A DNA stretch of 64,000 bases from assembly GCA_050740315.1 (NCBI GenBank), contig JBOIDC010000004.1, positions 4,918-68,917 of the forward strand, in the 5' to 3' direction. This document shows, piece after piece, positions 28,804-38,699 of the stretch. The position numbers were made by a program, and so were the translations under genes. This DNA comes from Gammaproteobacteria bacterium (GTDB lineage Bacteria; Pseudomonadota; Gammaproteobacteria; JACCYU01). The stretch's first letter is position 1, and every line of letters begins with the position of its first letter. The notes under the pieces were generated by a model, which saw nothing but the letters and a program-made list of their open reading frames with translations, was not told where the DNA came from and did not search any database.

Positions 28804-28900
28804 GGAAGAGATTCGATCCCCGGTGGGGCGTCCGGACTTCAAATCCGGGAGGGGCCGTCACGCGGTCCTTGGTGGGTTCGACTCCCACTCTCTTCCGCCA
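28804..28900 (+). tRNA. selC: tRNA-Sec (selC), anticodon UCA
   Basis: 97 nt: GGAAGAG...GGACTTCAAATCC...long variable arm...GGTTCGACTCC...CTCTTCCGCCA. Near-identical architecture to E. coli selC. Confidence 0.9.
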
Positions 28901-34502: not shown

Positions 34503-34644
34503 TGATTTCCTTACAACGTGATCAGACCGTGCGGCAGAAAAGCGATGAGCACGGAACGCATCAGCGATGCAAAATACGGGGCCTGCCAACGGCAAGGGGC
34601 GGAAAGTTAGCATAAAATGCGTGTCCCGCGCCAATCGTCAGCTT

Positions 34645-35256
34645 ATGAATCCCGCCTACCAACAGACCCGCTTTGTCACGAGCGTTTTCGAGCGCCGCCA
34701 GTTACCCGCCGACGTTGGCGCCGAAGCCGCATTCGCCGGTCGCTCCAACGCCGGCAAGTCCAGCGCCATAAACGCGGTGTGCCAGCAACGACAGCTTGCC
34801 CAGATCAGCAAGACGCCCGGGCGGACGCGCGCGCTCAATTTTTTCTCGATAGATAGTGACAGAAAGCTGGTCGACCTGCCCGGCTACGGCTACGCGAACG
34901 CGCCGGCGGCGCTGCGAAAACAGTGGCAATCGCTCATTGAACATTATCTGAACCGGCGCCGAAGCCTGCGCGGTCTGGTGCTGGTGATGGATATTCGGCA
35001 CCCGCTGACCGATCACGACTGGCAATTACTGGTCTGGTGCCAGGCGCGGGCGCTGCCGTTGCACATTCTGCTCACCAAGGCGGATAAACTTAGCCGGGGC
35101 GCCGCCGCGTCGACTTTGCAGACCGTCGGTCGGTCACTGCACGCACGCGAAATCGACGCCAGCTTGCAGACGTTCTCGACGCTGAAACGCCAGGGCGTGG
35201 AACAGGTGCATGAGGTTCTCGATGCGTGGCTCGGCGTAATGACGAAAGGACGATAG
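34645..35256 (+). CDS. engB: Ribosome-biogenesis GTPase EngB/YsxC (YihA)
   Basis: GRSNAGKSS G1, DLPGYGYA G3, TKADK G4. Start at the internal MNPAYQQ. Confidence 0.9.
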   Translation: MNPAYQQTRFVTSVFERRQLPADVGAEAAFAGRSNAGKSSAINAVCQQRQLAQISKTPGRTRALNFFSIDSDRKLVDLPGYGYANAPAALRKQWQSLIEHYLNRRRSLRGLVLVMDIRHPLTDHDWQLLVWCQARALPLHILLTKADKLSRGAAASTLQTVGRSLHAREIDASLQTFSTLKRQGVEQVHEVLDAWLGVMTKGR

Positions 35257-35295
35257 ACGCGTGTACAGTTGATTTGTGCAACGCGGCGGCGCTAA

Positions 35296-35340
35296 TAAGC
35301 AGGTATAAAAAAGCCCCGGCGTAAACAGAAAGAACACCGG
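35296..35340 (-). terminator. Rho-independent terminator-like hairpin on the minus strand (GCCCCGG / CCGGGGC stem followed by a T7 tract). On the plus strand the same stem closes engB.
   Basis: Reverse complement reads gccccggtgttctttctgtttacgccggggcttttttat. Confidence 0.5.
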
Positions 35341-35530
35341 GGCATTCAAGGCTCGGCTTGGGGGGGTCCGAGCCATAAGCCCGCTCAGGGAGGGAAGCGG
35401 GAAGCGCCGGGCTACAGCGCTTGATATTACGACTAGGCTGCGGAGATAAAGTTCAGAGATGAAAATAACGAAACTGGAACCGGAGCCTGGTGAAAAACCG
35501 GGGATCATCATCCCTGATGATCCGCCGGTC
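35296..35530 (-). ncRNA. Candidate small RNA downstream of polA (positional analogue of Spot 42 / ErsA between polA and engB). Boundaries approximate.
   Basis: Several consecutive hairpins (GGATCATCA/TGATGATCC; GGCTCGG/CCGAGCC; CCCGCT/AGCGGG) end in the minus-strand terminator. There is no ORF in 35257-35942. Confidence 0.3.
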
Positions 35531-35942
35531 GGCCCCTCTTCCCTCCCCCAGAGATTTTATCGCTGACACTGCCGCGGATTGAGCCGCTTTCTATCCGCCA
35601 GCGCACCGGCTTGTCCAATGCTTTCAGGCGCTTGCAATGTCAGGTAATGAGAAGTCTCTTAAAGAGACTTATAGGCCAGCATCGAGTGGATTGACACCCG
35701 TTAACGACGGGCGGTCAATTTAGAGCGATAAACGCGCCGTATGCGCTACCGGGCGCCGACCAGGGCGATGCCAAAGATGCGCCTAAGGAACCACAGATCA
35801 GCGGCTCCTGCGGCGCAGGGATGTGCTGTCGTTTTTGACGACGGGGAGTCGTTGAAGATGAAGCAAAGCCCGGAAGTTTGTCTGCTCGGGCCGCGCCTTT
35901 GCTTGCTCTGAGAAGTCCAGGACGAATTCGTTCACAGCTTGC

Positions 35943-38699
35943 TTAATGAGCCTCGTCCCAGTTATCGCCTAACGCCGCTTCGACTTTTAGCATCACGGTC
36001 AGCTCGGCCGCCGCAGCCATGCGCGGAACGATCTCAGCCGTCACTGCCCGCGCCGCATCGGCGGCGACCTCGAACACCAGCTCGTCATGCACCTGCATTA
36101 CCATGCGCGCGGGCGCGTCGTTGTCCAGCAGCCAGGCGTCCACGGCGATCATCGCGCGCTTGATGATGTCCGCCGCGGTGCCCTGCATGGGCGCGTTGAT
36201 CGCCGTGCGCTCCGCGTACTGGCGGCGCGGCGCGTTGCGGGACTTGATCTCCGGCAGATACAAACGCCGCCCGAACACGGTTTCCACGTAGCCCTGGGCG
36301 CGCGCCTGCTCTCGGGTTGCATCCATGTAGGCCTTGACGCCGGGATAGCGCTCGAAATAGCGGTTGACGTAGTCCTGCGCCGCGCCGCGGTCGATGCCCA
36401 GTTGACGCCCCAGACCGAACGCGGACATGCCATAGATAAGCCCGAAGTTGATCGCCTTGGCCGCCCGCCGCTGTTCATTGGTCACGTACGCCGGCGGCGT
36501 GCCGAACACCTCAGCGGCGGTGGCGCGATGAATGTCCTTGTCCTCGTCGAAGGCCGCGCGCAAGCCCGCGTCGCCCGACAGATGCGCCATGATGCGCAAC
36601 TCGATCTGTGAATAATCGGCGGCCAGAATCTTGTAGCCGGGCGGCGCGATAAACGCCTGGCGGATACGCCGGCCCACCGCTGTGCGGATAGGAATGTTCT
36701 GCAGATTGGGCTCGGAGGAGGACAGCCGCCCGGTCGATGCCACTGCCTGATGATAGGACGTGTGAACCCGGCCGGTGCGGCCGTTGATCTGTTTCGGCAA
36801 TTTGTCGGTATAAGTCGATTTAAGCTTGCTCAACGCCCGATGATCGAGAATCAGACGCGGCAGCGGATAATCCAGCGCCAGTTCCGCGAGCACGTCTTCT
36901 GCGGTTGAGGGCTGACCTTTGGGCGTTTTGCGCTGCGCCGGCAAACGCAGTTTTTCGTAGAGAATCTCCTGGATCTGCTTGGGTGACCCGATATTGAATG
37001 GCTGACCGGCGGCCTCGAAAGCGTCGCGTTCGACCTCGGCCATGCGCAGTGCCAGATCGGAACTCTGCGCGGCCAACTGCGCCGCGTCGACCAGCACGCC
37101 CACACATTCCATGCGCGACAGAACCGGCACCAGCGGCATCTCGATTTCCTGATAAAGCGCGCGCAACGACGGAAGCGTTTCCAGCCGTGGCCAGAAATGG
37201 CGGTGCAGGCGCAAACTCATGTCAGCATCTTCGGCGGCGTAGGGCGTGGCCCTTTCTAACTCCACCTGATTGAAGGTCAACTGCTTTGCGCCTTTTCCCG
37301 CCACGTCTTCGAAATGGATGTTGGTGTGGCGCAGATGCTGCTCGCACAAGGTGTCCAGGTCGTGACGGCTGGCGGTGGAGTTCAACACGTACGACTCCAG
37401 CATCGTGTCGTGCGCGATGCCCGCCAGCGTAATCCCATGATTGGTCAGCACGTTGCGGTCGTATTTCAGGTGATGGCCAACCTTTAGTTTCGCCGGATCT
37501 TCGAGCCACGGCTTGAGCCGCGCCAAGGTCAGGTCGAAGTCCAACTGCGGCGGCGCGCCCGGATAATCGTGCGCCAGCGGAAGGTAAGCGGCCTGTCCTG
37601 GGCGGACCGCGAATGACATGCCGACCAGCCGCGCCTGGGCATAGTTCAAATTGTCCGTCTCCGTGTCGAAGGCGACCAGCTCCGCTGCCGCCAGCTTTGC
37701 CAGCCACTCGCTCAATTGCATGTCGGTCACAATGGTCTGGTAATCAACGGGCTGCGCCATCCTGGCTTCATCTTCGGTTTCGTCCCGCACGTCCGGCACA
37801 GGCACATCGGGCGGTTTGCCTTGCGTCTCTGGGGCTTCGCCTTTACCCAGCGCGGCCAGCCAAGCCTTGAATTCATAACGCTGATAAAGCGCGCGCAGCC
37901 GATCCGTATCCGCGGGTCTGATGGCCAGGTCTTGCGGCGCCAGCGCCAAAGGCACGTCGCACTTGATGGTTGCCAGTTCGTAAGACAGCGGCAGATCGGC
38001 GAGCGCCGCGCGCAGCTTTTCGCCGATCTTGCCCTTGATCTCGCCCGCGTGTTCGACCACGCTGTCCAGCGAATCGTAAGCCTGCAGCCACTTGGCGGCG
38101 GTCTTGGGCCCGACCCCCGGCACGCCAGGGATGTTATCGATCTTGTCGCCGACCAGCGCCAGGTAATCGATCATGCGCTCCGGCGGCACCCCGAAGCGCT
38201 CTCGGACGCCGTCGACGTCCAGGCAACGACCGTCCATGGTGTTCACCAGGGTGATGCGCGCGCTCACGATCTGCGCGAGATCTTTGTCGCTGGTTGAGAC
38301 CACCACGGGCATGTTGCCGGTTTCCGCCTCGCGCGCGAGGCTGCCGATTACGTCGTCGGCCTCCACGCCCGGGACGCACAGCAACGGCAATCCCATGGCC
38401 TCGATAATGTTGTGCAGCGGCTCGATCTGCGCGCCCAGCTCGTCCGGCATGGGCGGGCGCGTGGCCTTGTATTGCTCGTAGCGCTCGCTGCGGAAGGTCT
38501 TGCCCTTGGCATCGAACACCACGGCCATGTATTCGGGCTGATAGTCGTTCAACAGCCTCTTCAGCATACTGATAACGCCATACATCGCGCCTGTGGGCTC
38601 GCCGGACGTGTTGGTGAGCGGCGGCAACGCGTGGAATGCGCGAAAGAGGTACGACGACCCATCGACCAGCACGAGGGGCTTGCTTGAAGATTCGGTCAT
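35943..38699 (-). CDS. polA: DNA polymerase I
   Basis: 918 aa with 5'-3' exonuclease, 3'-5' exonuclease and polymerase motifs (...RRAAKAINFGLIYG..., VHDELVFE). Confidence 0.95.
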   Translation of the reverse strand: MTESSSKPLVLVDGSSYLFRAFHALPPLTNTSGEPTGAMYGVISMLKRLLNDYQPEYMAVVFDAKGKTFRSERYEQYKATRPPMPDELGAQIEPLHNIIEAMGLPLLCVPGVEADDVIGSLAREAETGNMPVVVSTSDKDLAQIVSARITLVNTMDGRCLDVDGVRERFGVPPERMIDYLALVGDKIDNIPGVPGVGPKTAAKWLQAYDSLDSVVEHAGEIKGKIGEKLRAALADLPLSYELATIKCDVPLALAPQDLAIRPADTDRLRALYQRYEFKAWLAALGKGEAPETQGKPPDVPVPDVRDETEDEARMAQPVDYQTIVTDMQLSEWLAKLAAAELVAFDTETDNLNYAQARLVGMSFAVRPGQAAYLPLAHDYPGAPPQLDFDLTLARLKPWLEDPAKLKVGHHLKYDRNVLTNHGITLAGIAHDTMLESYVLNSTASRHDLDTLCEQHLRHTNIHFEDVAGKGAKQLTFNQVELERATPYAAEDADMSLRLHRHFWPRLETLPSLRALYQEIEMPLVPVLSRMECVGVLVDAAQLAAQSSDLALRMAEVERDAFEAAGQPFNIGSPKQIQEILYEKLRLPAQRKTPKGQPSTAEDVLAELALDYPLPRLILDHRALSKLKSTYTDKLPKQINGRTGRVHTSYHQAVASTGRLSSSEPNLQNIPIRTAVGRRIRQAFIAPPGYKILAADYSQIELRIMAHLSGDAGLRAAFDEDKDIHRATAAEVFGTPPAYVTNEQRRAAKAINFGLIYGMSAFGLGRQLGIDRGAAQDYVNRYFERYPGVKAYMDATREQARAQGYVETVFGRRLYLPEIKSRNAPRRQYAERTAINAPMQGTAADIIKRAMIAVDAWLLDNDAPARMVMQVHDELVFEVAADAARAVTAEIVPRMAAAAELTVMLKVEAALGDNWDEAH

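What the first reader, a model, noticed from the sequence alone, without database searches (positions are those of the whole stretch)
35257..35942. Highly structured 0.69-kb polA-engB spacer: candidate sRNA with its own terminator on the polA strand
There is no ORF here, but the region has a succession of perfect hairpins and a minus-strand GC stem followed by T7 at 35296-35340. In enterics and pseudomonads an sRNA (Spot 42 / ErsA) occupies exactly this polA-engB position. This locus may encode a positional analogue.
Basis: partly seen in the sequence, partly recalled or inferred. Interest (0 to 1): 0.5.

Follow-up and report, generated by a model that had tools for sequence, protein, structure and literature searches.

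The report
Stress-promoter small RNA beside polA
The gap between the polA and engB genes holds a roughly 116-base regulatory RNA gene of a known type (anti-hemB/sX13-like, with C-rich loops and a stress-type promoter), and next to it a second conserved non-coding element of unknown function.

Summary
The 686-bp spacer between convergent engB (+) and polA (-) has no credible ORF and folds far better than shuffles (z -6.7). It has a minus-strand GC stem plus U6 at 35343-35307.

Minus strand 35422-35307 is a ~116-nt sRNA gene.
- It matches Rfam anti-hemB (RF02837) at 46.0 bits, E 1.5e-7 for the whole window. This is just under the gathering score of 49.5.
- It matches sX13 and ErsA weakly.
- Twelve related lineages, sampled in 14 loci, carry it at the same place. 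Five copies score above the gathering score. Nine base pairs show compensatory changes.
- 16 of 18 copies keep an AlgU/sigma-E-type promoter, GAACTT-N16/17-TCnnA.
- The hairpin loops UUCCCUCCCUGA and ACCCCCCCAA look like anti-Shine-Dalgarno seeds of the sX13 type.

The sRNA fills only the engB-proximal sixth of the spacer. A second conserved unit, "Block B" (35716-35493), ends in an invariant G-tract and a GGA-loop hairpin with a U-run. It has no Rfam match. Its G-tract is the best partner in 64 kb for the sRNA's seed loop, but that complementarity is not conserved across all lineages that have Block B.

Verdict: a new member of a known sRNA kind, plus an unexplained neighbouring element.

The parts
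34567..35256 (+). engB/yihA (ribosome-biogenesis GTPase), flanking gene. The true start is probably ~31 codons downstream of the first ATG.
   Evidence: ORF list. Pfam MMR_HSR1 and source names YihA/YsxC. Homologues are ~198 aa.
35943..38699 (-). polA (DNA polymerase I), flanking gene, convergent with engB.
   Evidence: ORF list. Pfam 5_3_exonuc, DNA_pol_A_exo1 and DNA_pol_A. tblastn to relatives.
35428..35454 (-). AlgU/sigma-E-type promoter of the sRNA. GAACTT is at 35454-35449, followed by N16, then TCGTA at 35432-35428 (with GTC at 35433-35431).
   Evidence: GAACTT-N15-GTC is the only match in the 64-kb window. GAACTT-N15/16-GTC is kept at a fixed distance in 16 of 18 homologous copies. The published AlgU consensus is GAACTT-N16/17-TCtgA (PMC10651043). 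The sigma-70 scan finds nothing here.
35307..35422 (-). sRNA gene (~116 nt) of the anti-hemB / sX13-like type. The 5' end is inferred from the promoter and from the start of conservation. The 3' end is the U6 run.
   Evidence: Rfam anti-hemB 46.0 bits and sX13 27 bits. Fold z -5.47. Own CM R1 gives 126.7 bits and a single copy in the window. Orthologues are present in 14 related loci.
35402..35422 (-). 5' hairpin SL0 (AAGCGCUG / CGGCGCUU, loop UAGCC).
   Evidence: Fold. Helix 1 in the pair counts is 86% paired, with 2 pairs showing changes on both sides.
35380..35401 (-). SL1: stem CCCGC(UU)/(GA)GCGGG with loop UUCCCUCCCUGA, which contains CCUCC (anti-Shine-Dalgarno). This is the putative main seed.
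   Evidence: Fold. It is the best-conserved part of the alignment. It aligns to hairpin 1 of the anti-hemB model.
35350..35374 (-). SL2: stem GGCUCGG/CCGAGCC with loop ACCCCCCCAA. This is the second C-rich loop.
   Evidence: Fold. Three of its 6 pairs show compensatory changes (GC<->AU).
35307..35343 (-). Intrinsic terminator: 10-bp GC-rich stem with an 11-nt loop (35343-35313), then U6 (35312-35307).
   Evidence: Fold and inverted repeat I2. Helix 4 is 97% paired, with 3 compensatory pairs. The simple terminator scan missed it because its loop is longer than 8 nt.
35669..35716 (-). Conserved promoter-like 5' part of Block B: ACCGCCCGTCG (35715-35705), GTGTCAAT (35697-35690), N16, TATAA (35673-35669). 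The promoter class is unresolved.
   Evidence: The motif TRTMAAT-N16-TAYAA is found in 8 of 8 alignable relatives and in L082. There is no sigma-70 consensus hit.
35493..35662 (-). Block B body: a putative ~170-nt structured non-coding RNA with no known family. The 5' end is inferred.
   Evidence: Conserved in 10 lineages. Fold -69.2 kcal/mol, z -3.68. RNAalifold predicts 51 pairs, 4 of them compensatory. No Rfam hit on either strand in the window or in 9 relatives.
35533..35549 (-). G-tract GGGGGAGGGAAGAGGGG. It contains GGGAGGGAAG (35547-35538), the exact complement of the SL1 loop sequence CUUCCCUCCC.
   Evidence: The 10-mer occurs only here and at the sRNA gene itself in 64 kb; 0.02 matches are expected. 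It is the best non-self duplex site for the SL1 loop (-25.7 kcal/mol against a mean of -7.7, sd 3.3). It is identical in L018, L036, L015 and L013; the window carries one extra G.
35493..35528 (-). Block B terminal hairpin CCGGC-GGAUCAUCA-GGGA-UGAUGAUCC-CCGG followed by U5 (35497-35493). The loop always carries GGA (core CARGGAUG).
   Evidence: Terminator scan. Inverted repeat I5. The motif is unique in the window. The hairpin is conserved in 10 of 10 lineages. The U-run is present in 7 of 10 and is lost in L018, L075 and L081.
35783..35935 (.). Variable segment directly after the polA stop codon. It is absent from the closest relative and is not conserved.
   Evidence: Gap in L018 (97% EngB identity) and not alignable in L013 and L015. 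BLAST finds it only on the window's own source contig (L011), with no second copy in the window. Fold z is only -2.72.

Best explanation
The spacer carries a bona fide trans-acting small RNA gene on the polA strand at 35422-35307 (~116 nt).

Proposed mechanism:
- It is transcribed from an extracytoplasmic-stress (sigma-E/AlgU-type) promoter, GAACTT-N16-TCGTA.
- It folds into four hairpins and ends at its own intrinsic terminator.
- The two internal hairpins present C-rich loops, UUCCCUCCCUGA (containing the anti-Shine-Dalgarno CCUCC) and ACCCCCCCAA.
- These loops most likely pair with G-rich or Shine-Dalgarno regions of target mRNAs and repress their translation, as shown for Xanthomonas sX13.
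- The U-tail and the Burkholderia homologue suggest that Hfq may assist.

By sequence and structure it belongs with anti-hemB (ncS04) of beta-proteobacteria. By position and promoter type it matches ErsA.

Shown here: conservation, structure with covariation, strand, covariance-model similarity, and conservation of the promoter motif.

Inferred: expression, sigma-E dependence, anti-SD pairing and Hfq use.

The rest of the spacer is not part of this sRNA. It holds a second conserved non-coding unit (Block B) and a variable stretch after polA.
For: - Rfam: anti-hemB at 46.0 bits, E 2.4e-9 (1 kb) and 1.5e-7 (64 kb). It is the only sub-threshold hit in the window. sX13 (27 bits) and ErsA (18.8 bits) hit the same place and strand.
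- Fold: -56.5 kcal/mol, z -5.47.
- Conservation: the same element sits on the same strand just after engB in Ectothiorhodospira, Thioalkalivibrio, a Thiotrichales MAG, a Steroidobacteraceae MAG and 8 closer metagenomic lineages. Anti-hemB scores there are 33-53.7 bits, and five copies are above the gathering score.
- Structure: in an 18-copy alignment, 94.8% of cells are paired against 28-53% for slid controls. Nine pairs have changes on both sides, a count reached by 0 of 500 shuffles.
- Strand: conserved U.G pairs fit only the minus strand.
- Promoter: GAACTT-N15/16-GTC lies at a fixed distance in 16 of 18 copies, while the neighbouring bases vary. It is unique in the window and fits the AlgU consensus GAACTT-N16/17-TCtgA (PMC10651043).
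- Literature: sX13 acts through C-rich loops on G-rich motifs at ribosome-binding sites (PMC3771888). ncS04/anti-hemB is Northern-confirmed and Hfq-bound (PMC5688073). ErsA lies in the polA-engB spacer and is sigma-22 dependent (PMC8575079; abstracts).
Against: - There is no expression data. The organism is an uncultured gammaproteobacterial MAG.
- The Rfam score is 3.5 bits below the curated gathering threshold.
- The matches to sX13 and ErsA are weak.
- ErsA uses a U-rich single-stranded seed rather than C-rich loops, so its mechanism cannot simply be transferred.
- No convincing target was found inside the window. The best non-self sites lie inside ORFs or in Block B.
- sigma-E dependence rests on a motif only.
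Confidence: 0.78

Rival explanations
1. Block B (35716-35493) is an independent G-tract sRNA that pairs with the neighbouring C-rich sRNA and antagonises it. It would act as a sponge or anti-sRNA, like RosA for RoxS or RsaI for RsaE in Firmicutes. This concerns the rest of the spacer and is compatible with the best explanation for the sRNA itself.
For: - GGGAGGGAAG is the exact complement of the SL1 loop. It occurs nowhere else in 64 kb, where 0.02 matches are expected.
- It is the best non-self duplex site in the window for the SL1 loop.
- It extends to 14 of 15 bp with CUUCCC-G-CUUCCCUCCC (read from the sequence), and the G-tract pairs with the SL1 region in the whole-spacer MFE.
- The cofold gain is -15 to -18 kcal/mol in 6 lineages, matched by at most 1 of 60 shuffles.
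- L078 shows one compensatory change: loop C->U with G-tract G->A.
- There is precedent for G-rich sponges of C-rich sRNAs (PMC8216469; bioRxiv 10.1101/278127).
Against: - The complementarity is weak or absent in L075, L078, L082 and L081, although Block B's hairpin and promoter-like part are conserved there.
- L075 and L079 carry an uncompensated G->A change in the G-tract.
- Any G-tract pairs with C-rich loops to some extent.
- There is no expression evidence.
- The short match could be a relic of an inverted duplication; the plus strand reads CCCCTCTTCCCTCCC.
Confidence: 0.17
2. Block B's conserved 3' module (G-tract plus a hairpin with GGA in the loop) is a protein-binding RNA element. It could be a CsrA/RsmA site pair or an Hfq-binding 3' module of an sRNA with targets of its own. 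In this reading its complementarity to the neighbouring sRNA is incidental.
For: - The hairpin loop keeps GGA in 10 of 10 lineages, and in the six lineages whose loop is followed by U (window, L075, L078, L079, L081, L082) it matches the CARGGAUG core of the CsrA SELEX consensus RUACARGGAUGU; L018, L036, L015 and L013 read GGAC there. The consensus is from established knowledge, not tested here.
- The stem sequence itself is conserved, rather than covarying.
- Further GGA motifs lie in the G-tract 25-30 nt upstream, a spacing that suits a CsrA dimer.
- An A-rich stretch precedes the G-tract.
Against: - There are only 4-7 GGA motifs per ~170 nt, and only 3-4 are conserved. This is far fewer than in CsrB or RsmY/Z.
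- No CsrB, CsrC or Rsm family hit appears even at E<=10.
- The presence of csrA in this genome was not checked.
Confidence: 0.2
3. There is no independent sRNA. The hairpins are only the transcription terminators and 3' UTR of polA, possibly also serving engB.
For: - Both flanking genes end here and need terminators.
- The 35528-35493 hairpin with its U-run could end polA transcripts.
- The simple sigma-70 scan finds no promoter.
Against: - A terminator does not explain three further conserved hairpins with invariant C-rich loops.
- It does not explain the covariance-model match to a Northern-verified sRNA family.
- It does not explain the conserved AlgU-type promoter directly upstream.
- It does not explain tandem duplicated copies, each with its own promoter, in Ectothiorhodospira and Thioalkalivibrio.
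- The polA-proximal part of the spacer is the least conserved part.
Confidence: 0.05
4. The element is read from the plus strand. This corresponds to the 'hemB' orientation of the hemB/anti-hemB motif, for example as a 3' UTR structure of engB.
For: - Weinberg et al. noted comparable covariation in both orientations for the beta-proteobacterial motif (PMC1950547).
- engB ends 50 nt upstream on the plus strand.
Against: - The U-run follows the stem only on the minus strand.
- Conserved U.G pairs (alignment columns 10-18 and 34-44) would be A.C mismatches on the plus strand.
- The conserved promoter motif is on the minus strand.
- The Rfam and own-CM hits are on the minus strand only. The best plus-strand score is 10.9 bits.
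Confidence: 0.03

Closest known systems
anti-hemB RNA (Rfam RF02837; Burkholderia cenocepacia ncS04)
   Same: - The three-hairpin core is the same, with a nearly identical first hairpin (CCCGCUU-CCCUCCCUGAGCGGG against consensus CCCCGCuUCuCCUCCCUGaGCGGG), a second hairpin and a GC-rich terminator with a U-run.
- The CM match is significant, at E 1.5e-7 over the whole window.
- Orthologous copies in sister lineages pass the gathering score.
- It is a stand-alone non-coding RNA with its own terminator (PMC1950547).
   Different: - The score of 46.0 is below the gathering score of 49.5.
- The host is a gammaproteobacterium, not a beta-proteobacterium.
- The neighbour is polA, not hemB.
- It has an extra 5' hairpin that is not in the 81-nt model.
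- It has longer loops in hairpin 2 and in the terminator.
sX13 (Rfam RF02232; Xanthomonadaceae)
   Same: - It lies downstream of polA on the polA strand.
- It is ~115 nt long.
- It is a series of stable stem-loops with apical C-rich loops (4C/5C motifs).
- The likely mode of action is pairing with G-rich motifs at ribosome-binding sites (PMC3771888).
- There is a weak but co-located CM match, up to 34.5 bits in L078.
   Different: - The CM score is far below the gathering score (27 against 50).
- sX13 has been reported only in Xanthomonadaceae.
- The window's terminator loop is not C-rich, although several relatives' terminator loops are.
- The promoter type of sX13 was not compared.
ErsA / Pseudomon-1 (Rfam RF01719; Pseudomonas)
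   Same: - It occupies the same polA-engB intergenic position (PMC8575079).
- ErsA is controlled by the envelope-stress sigma factor sigma-22/AlgU, and the window's sRNA and its relatives carry an AlgU-type promoter motif.
- Both have three or more stem-loops and a terminator.
   Different: - The CM score is only 18.8 bits (E 0.57).
- ErsA pairs through a U-rich unstructured domain between SL1 and SL2, not through C-rich loops.
Spot 42 (spf; Enterobacterales, Vibrionaceae)
   Same: Position only: it lies between polA and yihA/engB on the polA strand (bioRxiv 10.64898/2026.07.10.737749).
   Different: - There is no CM match, even at E<=10.
- Spot 42 is CRP-repressed, not sigma-E dependent.
- Its seeds are different.
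RosA / RsaI (G-rich sponge sRNAs of Firmicutes). Comparison for Block B only.
   Same: - It would be a stand-alone structured RNA of ~150-230 nt.
- It has a single-stranded G-rich tract complementary to the C-rich seed of another sRNA (PMC8216469; 10.1101/278127).
   Different: - There is no sequence relationship.
- The host is a proteobacterium.
- It is genetically linked to its putative partner.
- The complementarity is not conserved in all lineages.
- Nothing has been tested experimentally.

Membership tests
anti-hemB (RF02837) | Covariance-model score at or above Rfam's gathering score (49.5 bits). | tested here: not met
   The score is 46.0 bits, E 2.4e-9 (1 kb) and 1.5e-7 (64 kb). Orthologous copies in L008, L007, L001, L003 and L082 score 50.0-53.7 bits. 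The window copy is therefore a borderline, divergent member rather than an unrelated sequence.
anti-hemB (RF02837) | Hairpin 1 with a CCUCCCUGA loop, hairpin 2, and a terminator hairpin with a U-run, covering the full model length. | tested here: met
   The alignment covers model positions 1-81 of 81. MFE fold. Pair counts are 94.8% paired with 9 compensatory pairs.
anti-hemB (RF02837) | Genomic context next to hemB in beta-proteobacteria. | tested here: not met
   Here and in all 14 related loci the element lies between engB and polA in gammaproteobacteria. Context is not part of the Rfam model. A 2026 preprint notes copies that are decoupled from hemB.
anti-hemB (RF02837) | Expressed as a ~105-nt Hfq-associated sRNA. 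| not testable with these tools
   This is known for B. cenocepacia ncS04 (PMC5688073). No transcriptome is available for this MAG.
sX13 (RF02232) | Covariance-model score at or above the gathering score (50 bits). | tested here: not met
   The window scores 27.0 bits, E 0.0067. Relatives score 21.8-34.5 bits.
sX13 (RF02232) | Located downstream of polA, ~115 nt long, with stem-loops carrying apical CCCC/CCCCC motifs. | tested here: met
   The sRNA is at 35422-35307 on the polA strand. Its loops are UUCCCUCCCUGA and ACCCCCCCAA. sX13 is described in PMC3771888.
ErsA / Pseudomon-1 (RF01719) | Covariance-model score at or above the gathering score (50 bits). | tested here: not met
   18.8 bits, E 0.57.
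ErsA / Pseudomon-1 (RF01719) | [quoted passage not shown] | tested here: inconclusive
   The position is met. A promoter motif GAACTT-N16-TCGTA is present and is conserved in 16 of 18 copies. Actual sigma-factor dependence cannot be tested here.
Spot 42 (RF00021) | Covariance-model match. | tested here: not met
   There is no hit in 35100-36100 at E<=10. Only the genomic position is shared.
CsrB/CsrC/Rsm sRNAs (for Block B) | Many GGA motifs in loops and a covariance-model match to a Csr/Rsm family. | tested here: not met
   There are 4-7 GGA motifs per 139-175 nt, and only 3-4 are conserved. No Csr/Rsm hit appears in the window spacer or in 9 relatives.

The most novel reading that the evidence does not exclude
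Block B may encode a G-tract RNA that is a dedicated, genetically linked antagonist (sponge) of the adjacent C-rich, stress-induced sRNA. It would sequester the sRNA's anti-SD seed through a 10-15-bp duplex. This would be the first sRNA and sponge pair of the RoxS/RosA type in Proteobacteria, and the two partners would be encoded side by side.
Probability: 0.15. Interest if true: 0.7.

Novelty: new member of a known kind. Interest (0 to 1): 0.4.

Why it matters
- It extends the anti-hemB family, described mainly from beta-proteobacteria, into Ectothiorhodospira- and Thioalkalivibrio-like gammaproteobacteria and uncultured soil lineages.
- It links three separately named sRNAs by shared features. 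anti-hemB shares sequence and structure. sX13 shares C-rich loops and a position downstream of polA. ErsA shares the polA-engB position and a sigma-E/AlgU-type promoter. This supports the idea that the engB/polA neighbourhood hosts one ancient, diverging stress sRNA lineage, rather than unrelated sRNAs that arrived at the same position independently.
- It gives a ready annotation for this MAG: sRNA coordinates, strand and promoter.
- It flags an unannotated second conserved RNA-like element whose G-tract matches the sRNA seed. That hypothesis is directly testable.

Tried and rejected
- Rfam at gathering thresholds finds nothing in the spacer, only two tRNAs elsewhere. The hit appears only with E-value thresholds.
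- Spot 42 gives no match at all.
- The sigma-70 promoter scan found 0 sites. The promoter is of the ECF type.
- Coding potential was rejected. The three mechanical ORFs have no significant Pfam hit and are disrupted or absent in relatives. A 212-aa gene called over the spacer in L079 and L080 is probably spurious.
- The spacer is not a repeat or mobile element. Self-BLAST of the spacer against the window gives only its own palindrome. The 153-nt polA-proximal segment has no other copy.
- The one metagenome scan, using the 18-nt G-tract, returned mostly chance matches in unrelated contigs. Only L036, L062 and L043 are true Block B loci.
- Block B is not a degenerate tandem or inverted paralogue of the sRNA. 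My CM R1 scores it at 6.5 bits or less on either strand.
- The best duplex sites for the two loops elsewhere in the window (2586 +, 17860 -) lie inside ORFs or away from start codons, so they were not pursued as targets.
- Covariation between the SL1 loop and the G-tract gave mixed results. L078 shows a compensatory change and L082 possibly a second (read by eye). L075 and L079 are uncompensated. L081 has no complement, and L082 shows no net cofold gain.
That remains my recollection only.
Full report
**Observation.** engB (34567-35256, +) and polA (35943-38699, -) are convergent, and the 686-bp spacer 35257-35942 lies downstream of both. The mechanical ORFs that touch the spacer have no significant Pfam match. 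They fall in sequence that carries single-base indels or is missing in relatives. The whole spacer folds at -287 kcal/mol, z -6.66, so the structure is more than chance.

**The sRNA.**
- An E-value Rfam scan of the spacer gives one strong match on the minus strand at 35305-35403, to anti-hemB (RF02837). It scores 46.0 bits, E 2.4e-9, and covers the full model.
- In a scan of the whole 64-kb window it is the only sub-threshold hit, at E 1.5e-7. It lies 3.5 bits under Rfam's gathering score, which is why the default scan missed it.
- sX13 (27 bits, 35307-35422) and ErsA/Pseudomon-1 (18.8 bits) hit the same place and strand. Spot 42 does not hit.
- Minus strand 35425-35300 folds into four hairpins at -56.5 kcal/mol, z -5.47:
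  - SL0, 35422-35402.
  - SL1, 35401-35380, with loop UUCCCUCCCUGA.
  - SL2, core 35374-35350, with loop ACCCCCCCAA.
  - The terminator.

**Comparative evidence.**
- EngB-anchored loci from species-representative genomes all carry the element on the same strand right after engB, with polA convergent (L003's polA was not recovered). These are Ectothiorhodospira, Thioalkalivibrio, a Thiotrichales MAG and a Steroidobacteraceae MAG.
- Ectothiorhodospira and Thioalkalivibrio carry two tandem copies.
- Closer relatives (66-97% EngB identity) were found through the protein database. The window itself matches MAG GCA_975322995.1. All but one of these relatives carry the element, with anti-hemB scores of 35.5-51.1 bits. 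The exception is L076, where the locus is rearranged.
- In an alignment of 18 copies, the four-helix structure is 94.8% paired, against 28-53% for slid controls. Nine pairs have changes on both sides, a count reached by 0 of 500 shuffles.
- Conserved U.G pairs and the U-run fix the transcribed strand as minus. This removes the strand ambiguity noted when the motif was first described (PMC1950547).
- A covariance model built from the alignment finds exactly one copy in the window, at 126.7 bits.

**Promoter.**
- Upstream of 16 of the 18 copies, at a fixed distance from the first hairpin, lies GAACTT-N15/16-GTC. The flanking bases are otherwise not conserved.
- In the window this is GAACTT (35454-35449), N16, TCGTA (35432-35428). 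It is the only such site in 64 kb.
- It fits the published AlgU/sigma-E consensus GAACTT-N16/17-TCtgA (PMC10651043).
- A start about 6-9 nt downstream gives a 5' end near 35422 and an RNA of ~116 nt.
- ErsA, which lies in the Pseudomonas polA-engB spacer, is sigma-22/AlgU dependent (PMC8575079; abstracts).
- The sigma-70 scan finds nothing here.

**Likely mechanism.**
- The two internal loops are C-rich, and SL1 carries CCUCC, the anti-Shine-Dalgarno sequence.
- In Xanthomonas, sX13 lies downstream of polA, is 115 nt long and has three C-rich loops. It represses mRNAs through G-rich motifs at ribosome-binding sites (PMC3771888).
- The Burkholderia homologue ncS04 is a Northern-verified, Hfq-bound sRNA (PMC5688073).
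- I therefore infer a stress-induced, trans-acting repressor that occludes G-rich or SD regions.
- Expression, sigma-factor dependence, Hfq use and targets are inferences, not results.

**The rest of the spacer.** Alignment of whole spacers from close relatives shows two conserved blocks separated by unconserved DNA. Block A is the sRNA with its promoter.

Block B (35716-35493, minus strand) is conserved in ten lineages. It has these parts:
- A promoter-like part, ACCGYCTGTCG ... TRTMAAT-N16-TAYAA.
- A structured body that varies between lineages. RNAalifold predicts 51 pairs, 4 of them compensatory. The minus strand folds slightly better than the plus strand.
- A G-tract that is invariant apart from one extra G in the window, GGGGAGGGAAGAGGGGCCGACC.
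- A hairpin, GGAUCAUCA-(N)GGA(N)-UGAUGAUCC, followed by a U-run in 7 of 10 lineages.

Block B has no Rfam match on either strand in any lineage. It is not a degenerate copy of the sRNA.

The segment 35783-35935, directly after polA, is absent in the closest relative and has no other copy in the window.

**Block B and the sRNA.**
- The G-tract contains GGGAGGGAAG, the exact complement of the SL1 loop. This 10-mer occurs only there and at the sRNA gene itself in 64 kb, where 0.02 matches are expected.
- It is the best non-self duplex partner of the SL1 loop among about 25,600 windows.
- Cofolding gains 15-18 kcal/mol in six lineages, matched by at most 1 of 60 shuffles.
- This recalls the G-rich sponges RosA and RsaI of Firmicutes.
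- However, the gain is small in L075 and L078 and absent in L082 and L081, where Block B is otherwise conserved. Covariation is also mixed.
- The universally conserved feature is the hairpin, whose stem sequence is fixed and whose loop carries GGA; its surroundings match the CsrA-type core CARGGAUG only in six of the ten lineages. This could equally point to a protein-binding element.
- I leave Block B as an unexplained conserved non-coding unit, with the sponge reading at about 0.15-0.2.

**Comparison and verdict.**
- The element works like sX13.
- It is positioned like ErsA and Spot 42, and its promoter motif matches the sigma-22/AlgU control reported for ErsA.
- By sequence and structure it is a divergent member of anti-hemB. 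It fails the curated bit threshold by 3.5 bits and lacks the hemB neighbour, while orthologues in sister lineages pass the threshold.
- It is not a member of Spot 42, ErsA or sX13 by their models.
- Novelty: a new member of a known kind. Interest is moderate. It comes mainly from the link among anti-hemB, sX13 and ErsA around engB/polA, and from the unexplained G-tract element.

Noticed in passing
L001 4636-4738 and 4831-4922; L009 4627-4729 and 4824-4915; L007 4710-4816 and 4954-5044; L003 4673-4779 and 4929-5021 (all minus strand): Ectothiorhodospira and Thioalkalivibrio carry two tandem anti-hemB-like sRNA genes between engB and polA. Each has its own GAACTT-N15/16-GTC promoter. In Ectothiorhodospira the polA-proximal copy has a different first hairpin and the loop UUAACCCCCUAG.
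   Followed up: partly
window 28804-28896 (+) and 7788-7861 (+): A selenocysteine tRNA (71.2 bits) and an ordinary tRNA are the only Rfam gathering-level hits in the window.
   Followed up: no
window 35783-35935: A 153-nt segment directly after the polA stop codon is missing from the 97%-EngB relative L018. It is not alignable in the 81-82% relatives and has no second copy in the window. It is either a recent insertion here or a deletion there.
   Followed up: partly
L001 about 5090-5170 (minus); L009 about 5200-5270 (minus): The polA-proximal spacer of E. shaposhnikovii holds three G-rich GGTGGCGGAGGTGCC-like repeats, with GGAGGU complementary to that species' sRNA loop ACCUCC. E. lacustris instead has four CTTCTTCCGTCACTCCCG repeats.
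   Followed up: no
L076 2598-4597: In one 70%-EngB relative, polA is no longer next to engB. The neighbours are small ORFs, a PIN-domain gene and an IS1595 transposase, and neither the sRNA nor Block B was seen.
   Followed up: partly
L079 1147-1785 (+), L080 1389-2027 (+): The source annotation calls a 212-aa gene with no Pfam domain across the whole engB-polA spacer. It overlaps the sRNA and Block B and is probably a spurious high-GC ORF.
   Followed up: no
window 34567-34660: The engB ORF is 229 aa from its first ATG, but nearly all homologues are ~198 aa and align from residue ~24-30. The real start is probably about 31 codons downstream.
   Followed up: no
L001 4660-4685, L009 4650-4675, L078 2665-2685, L079 1145-1165 (minus): In several relatives the terminator loop of the sRNA carries a third C-rich motif (CCCC or CCCCC), as in sX13 loop 3. 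The window's terminator loop (UGUUCUUUCUGUUUACG) does not.
   Followed up: no
window 35652-35670: A perfect 9+9 palindrome, AAGTCTCTT-T-AAGAGACTT, sits just after Block B's TATAA box. It is degenerate in L018 and absent in other relatives, so it is probably not functional.
   Followed up: partly
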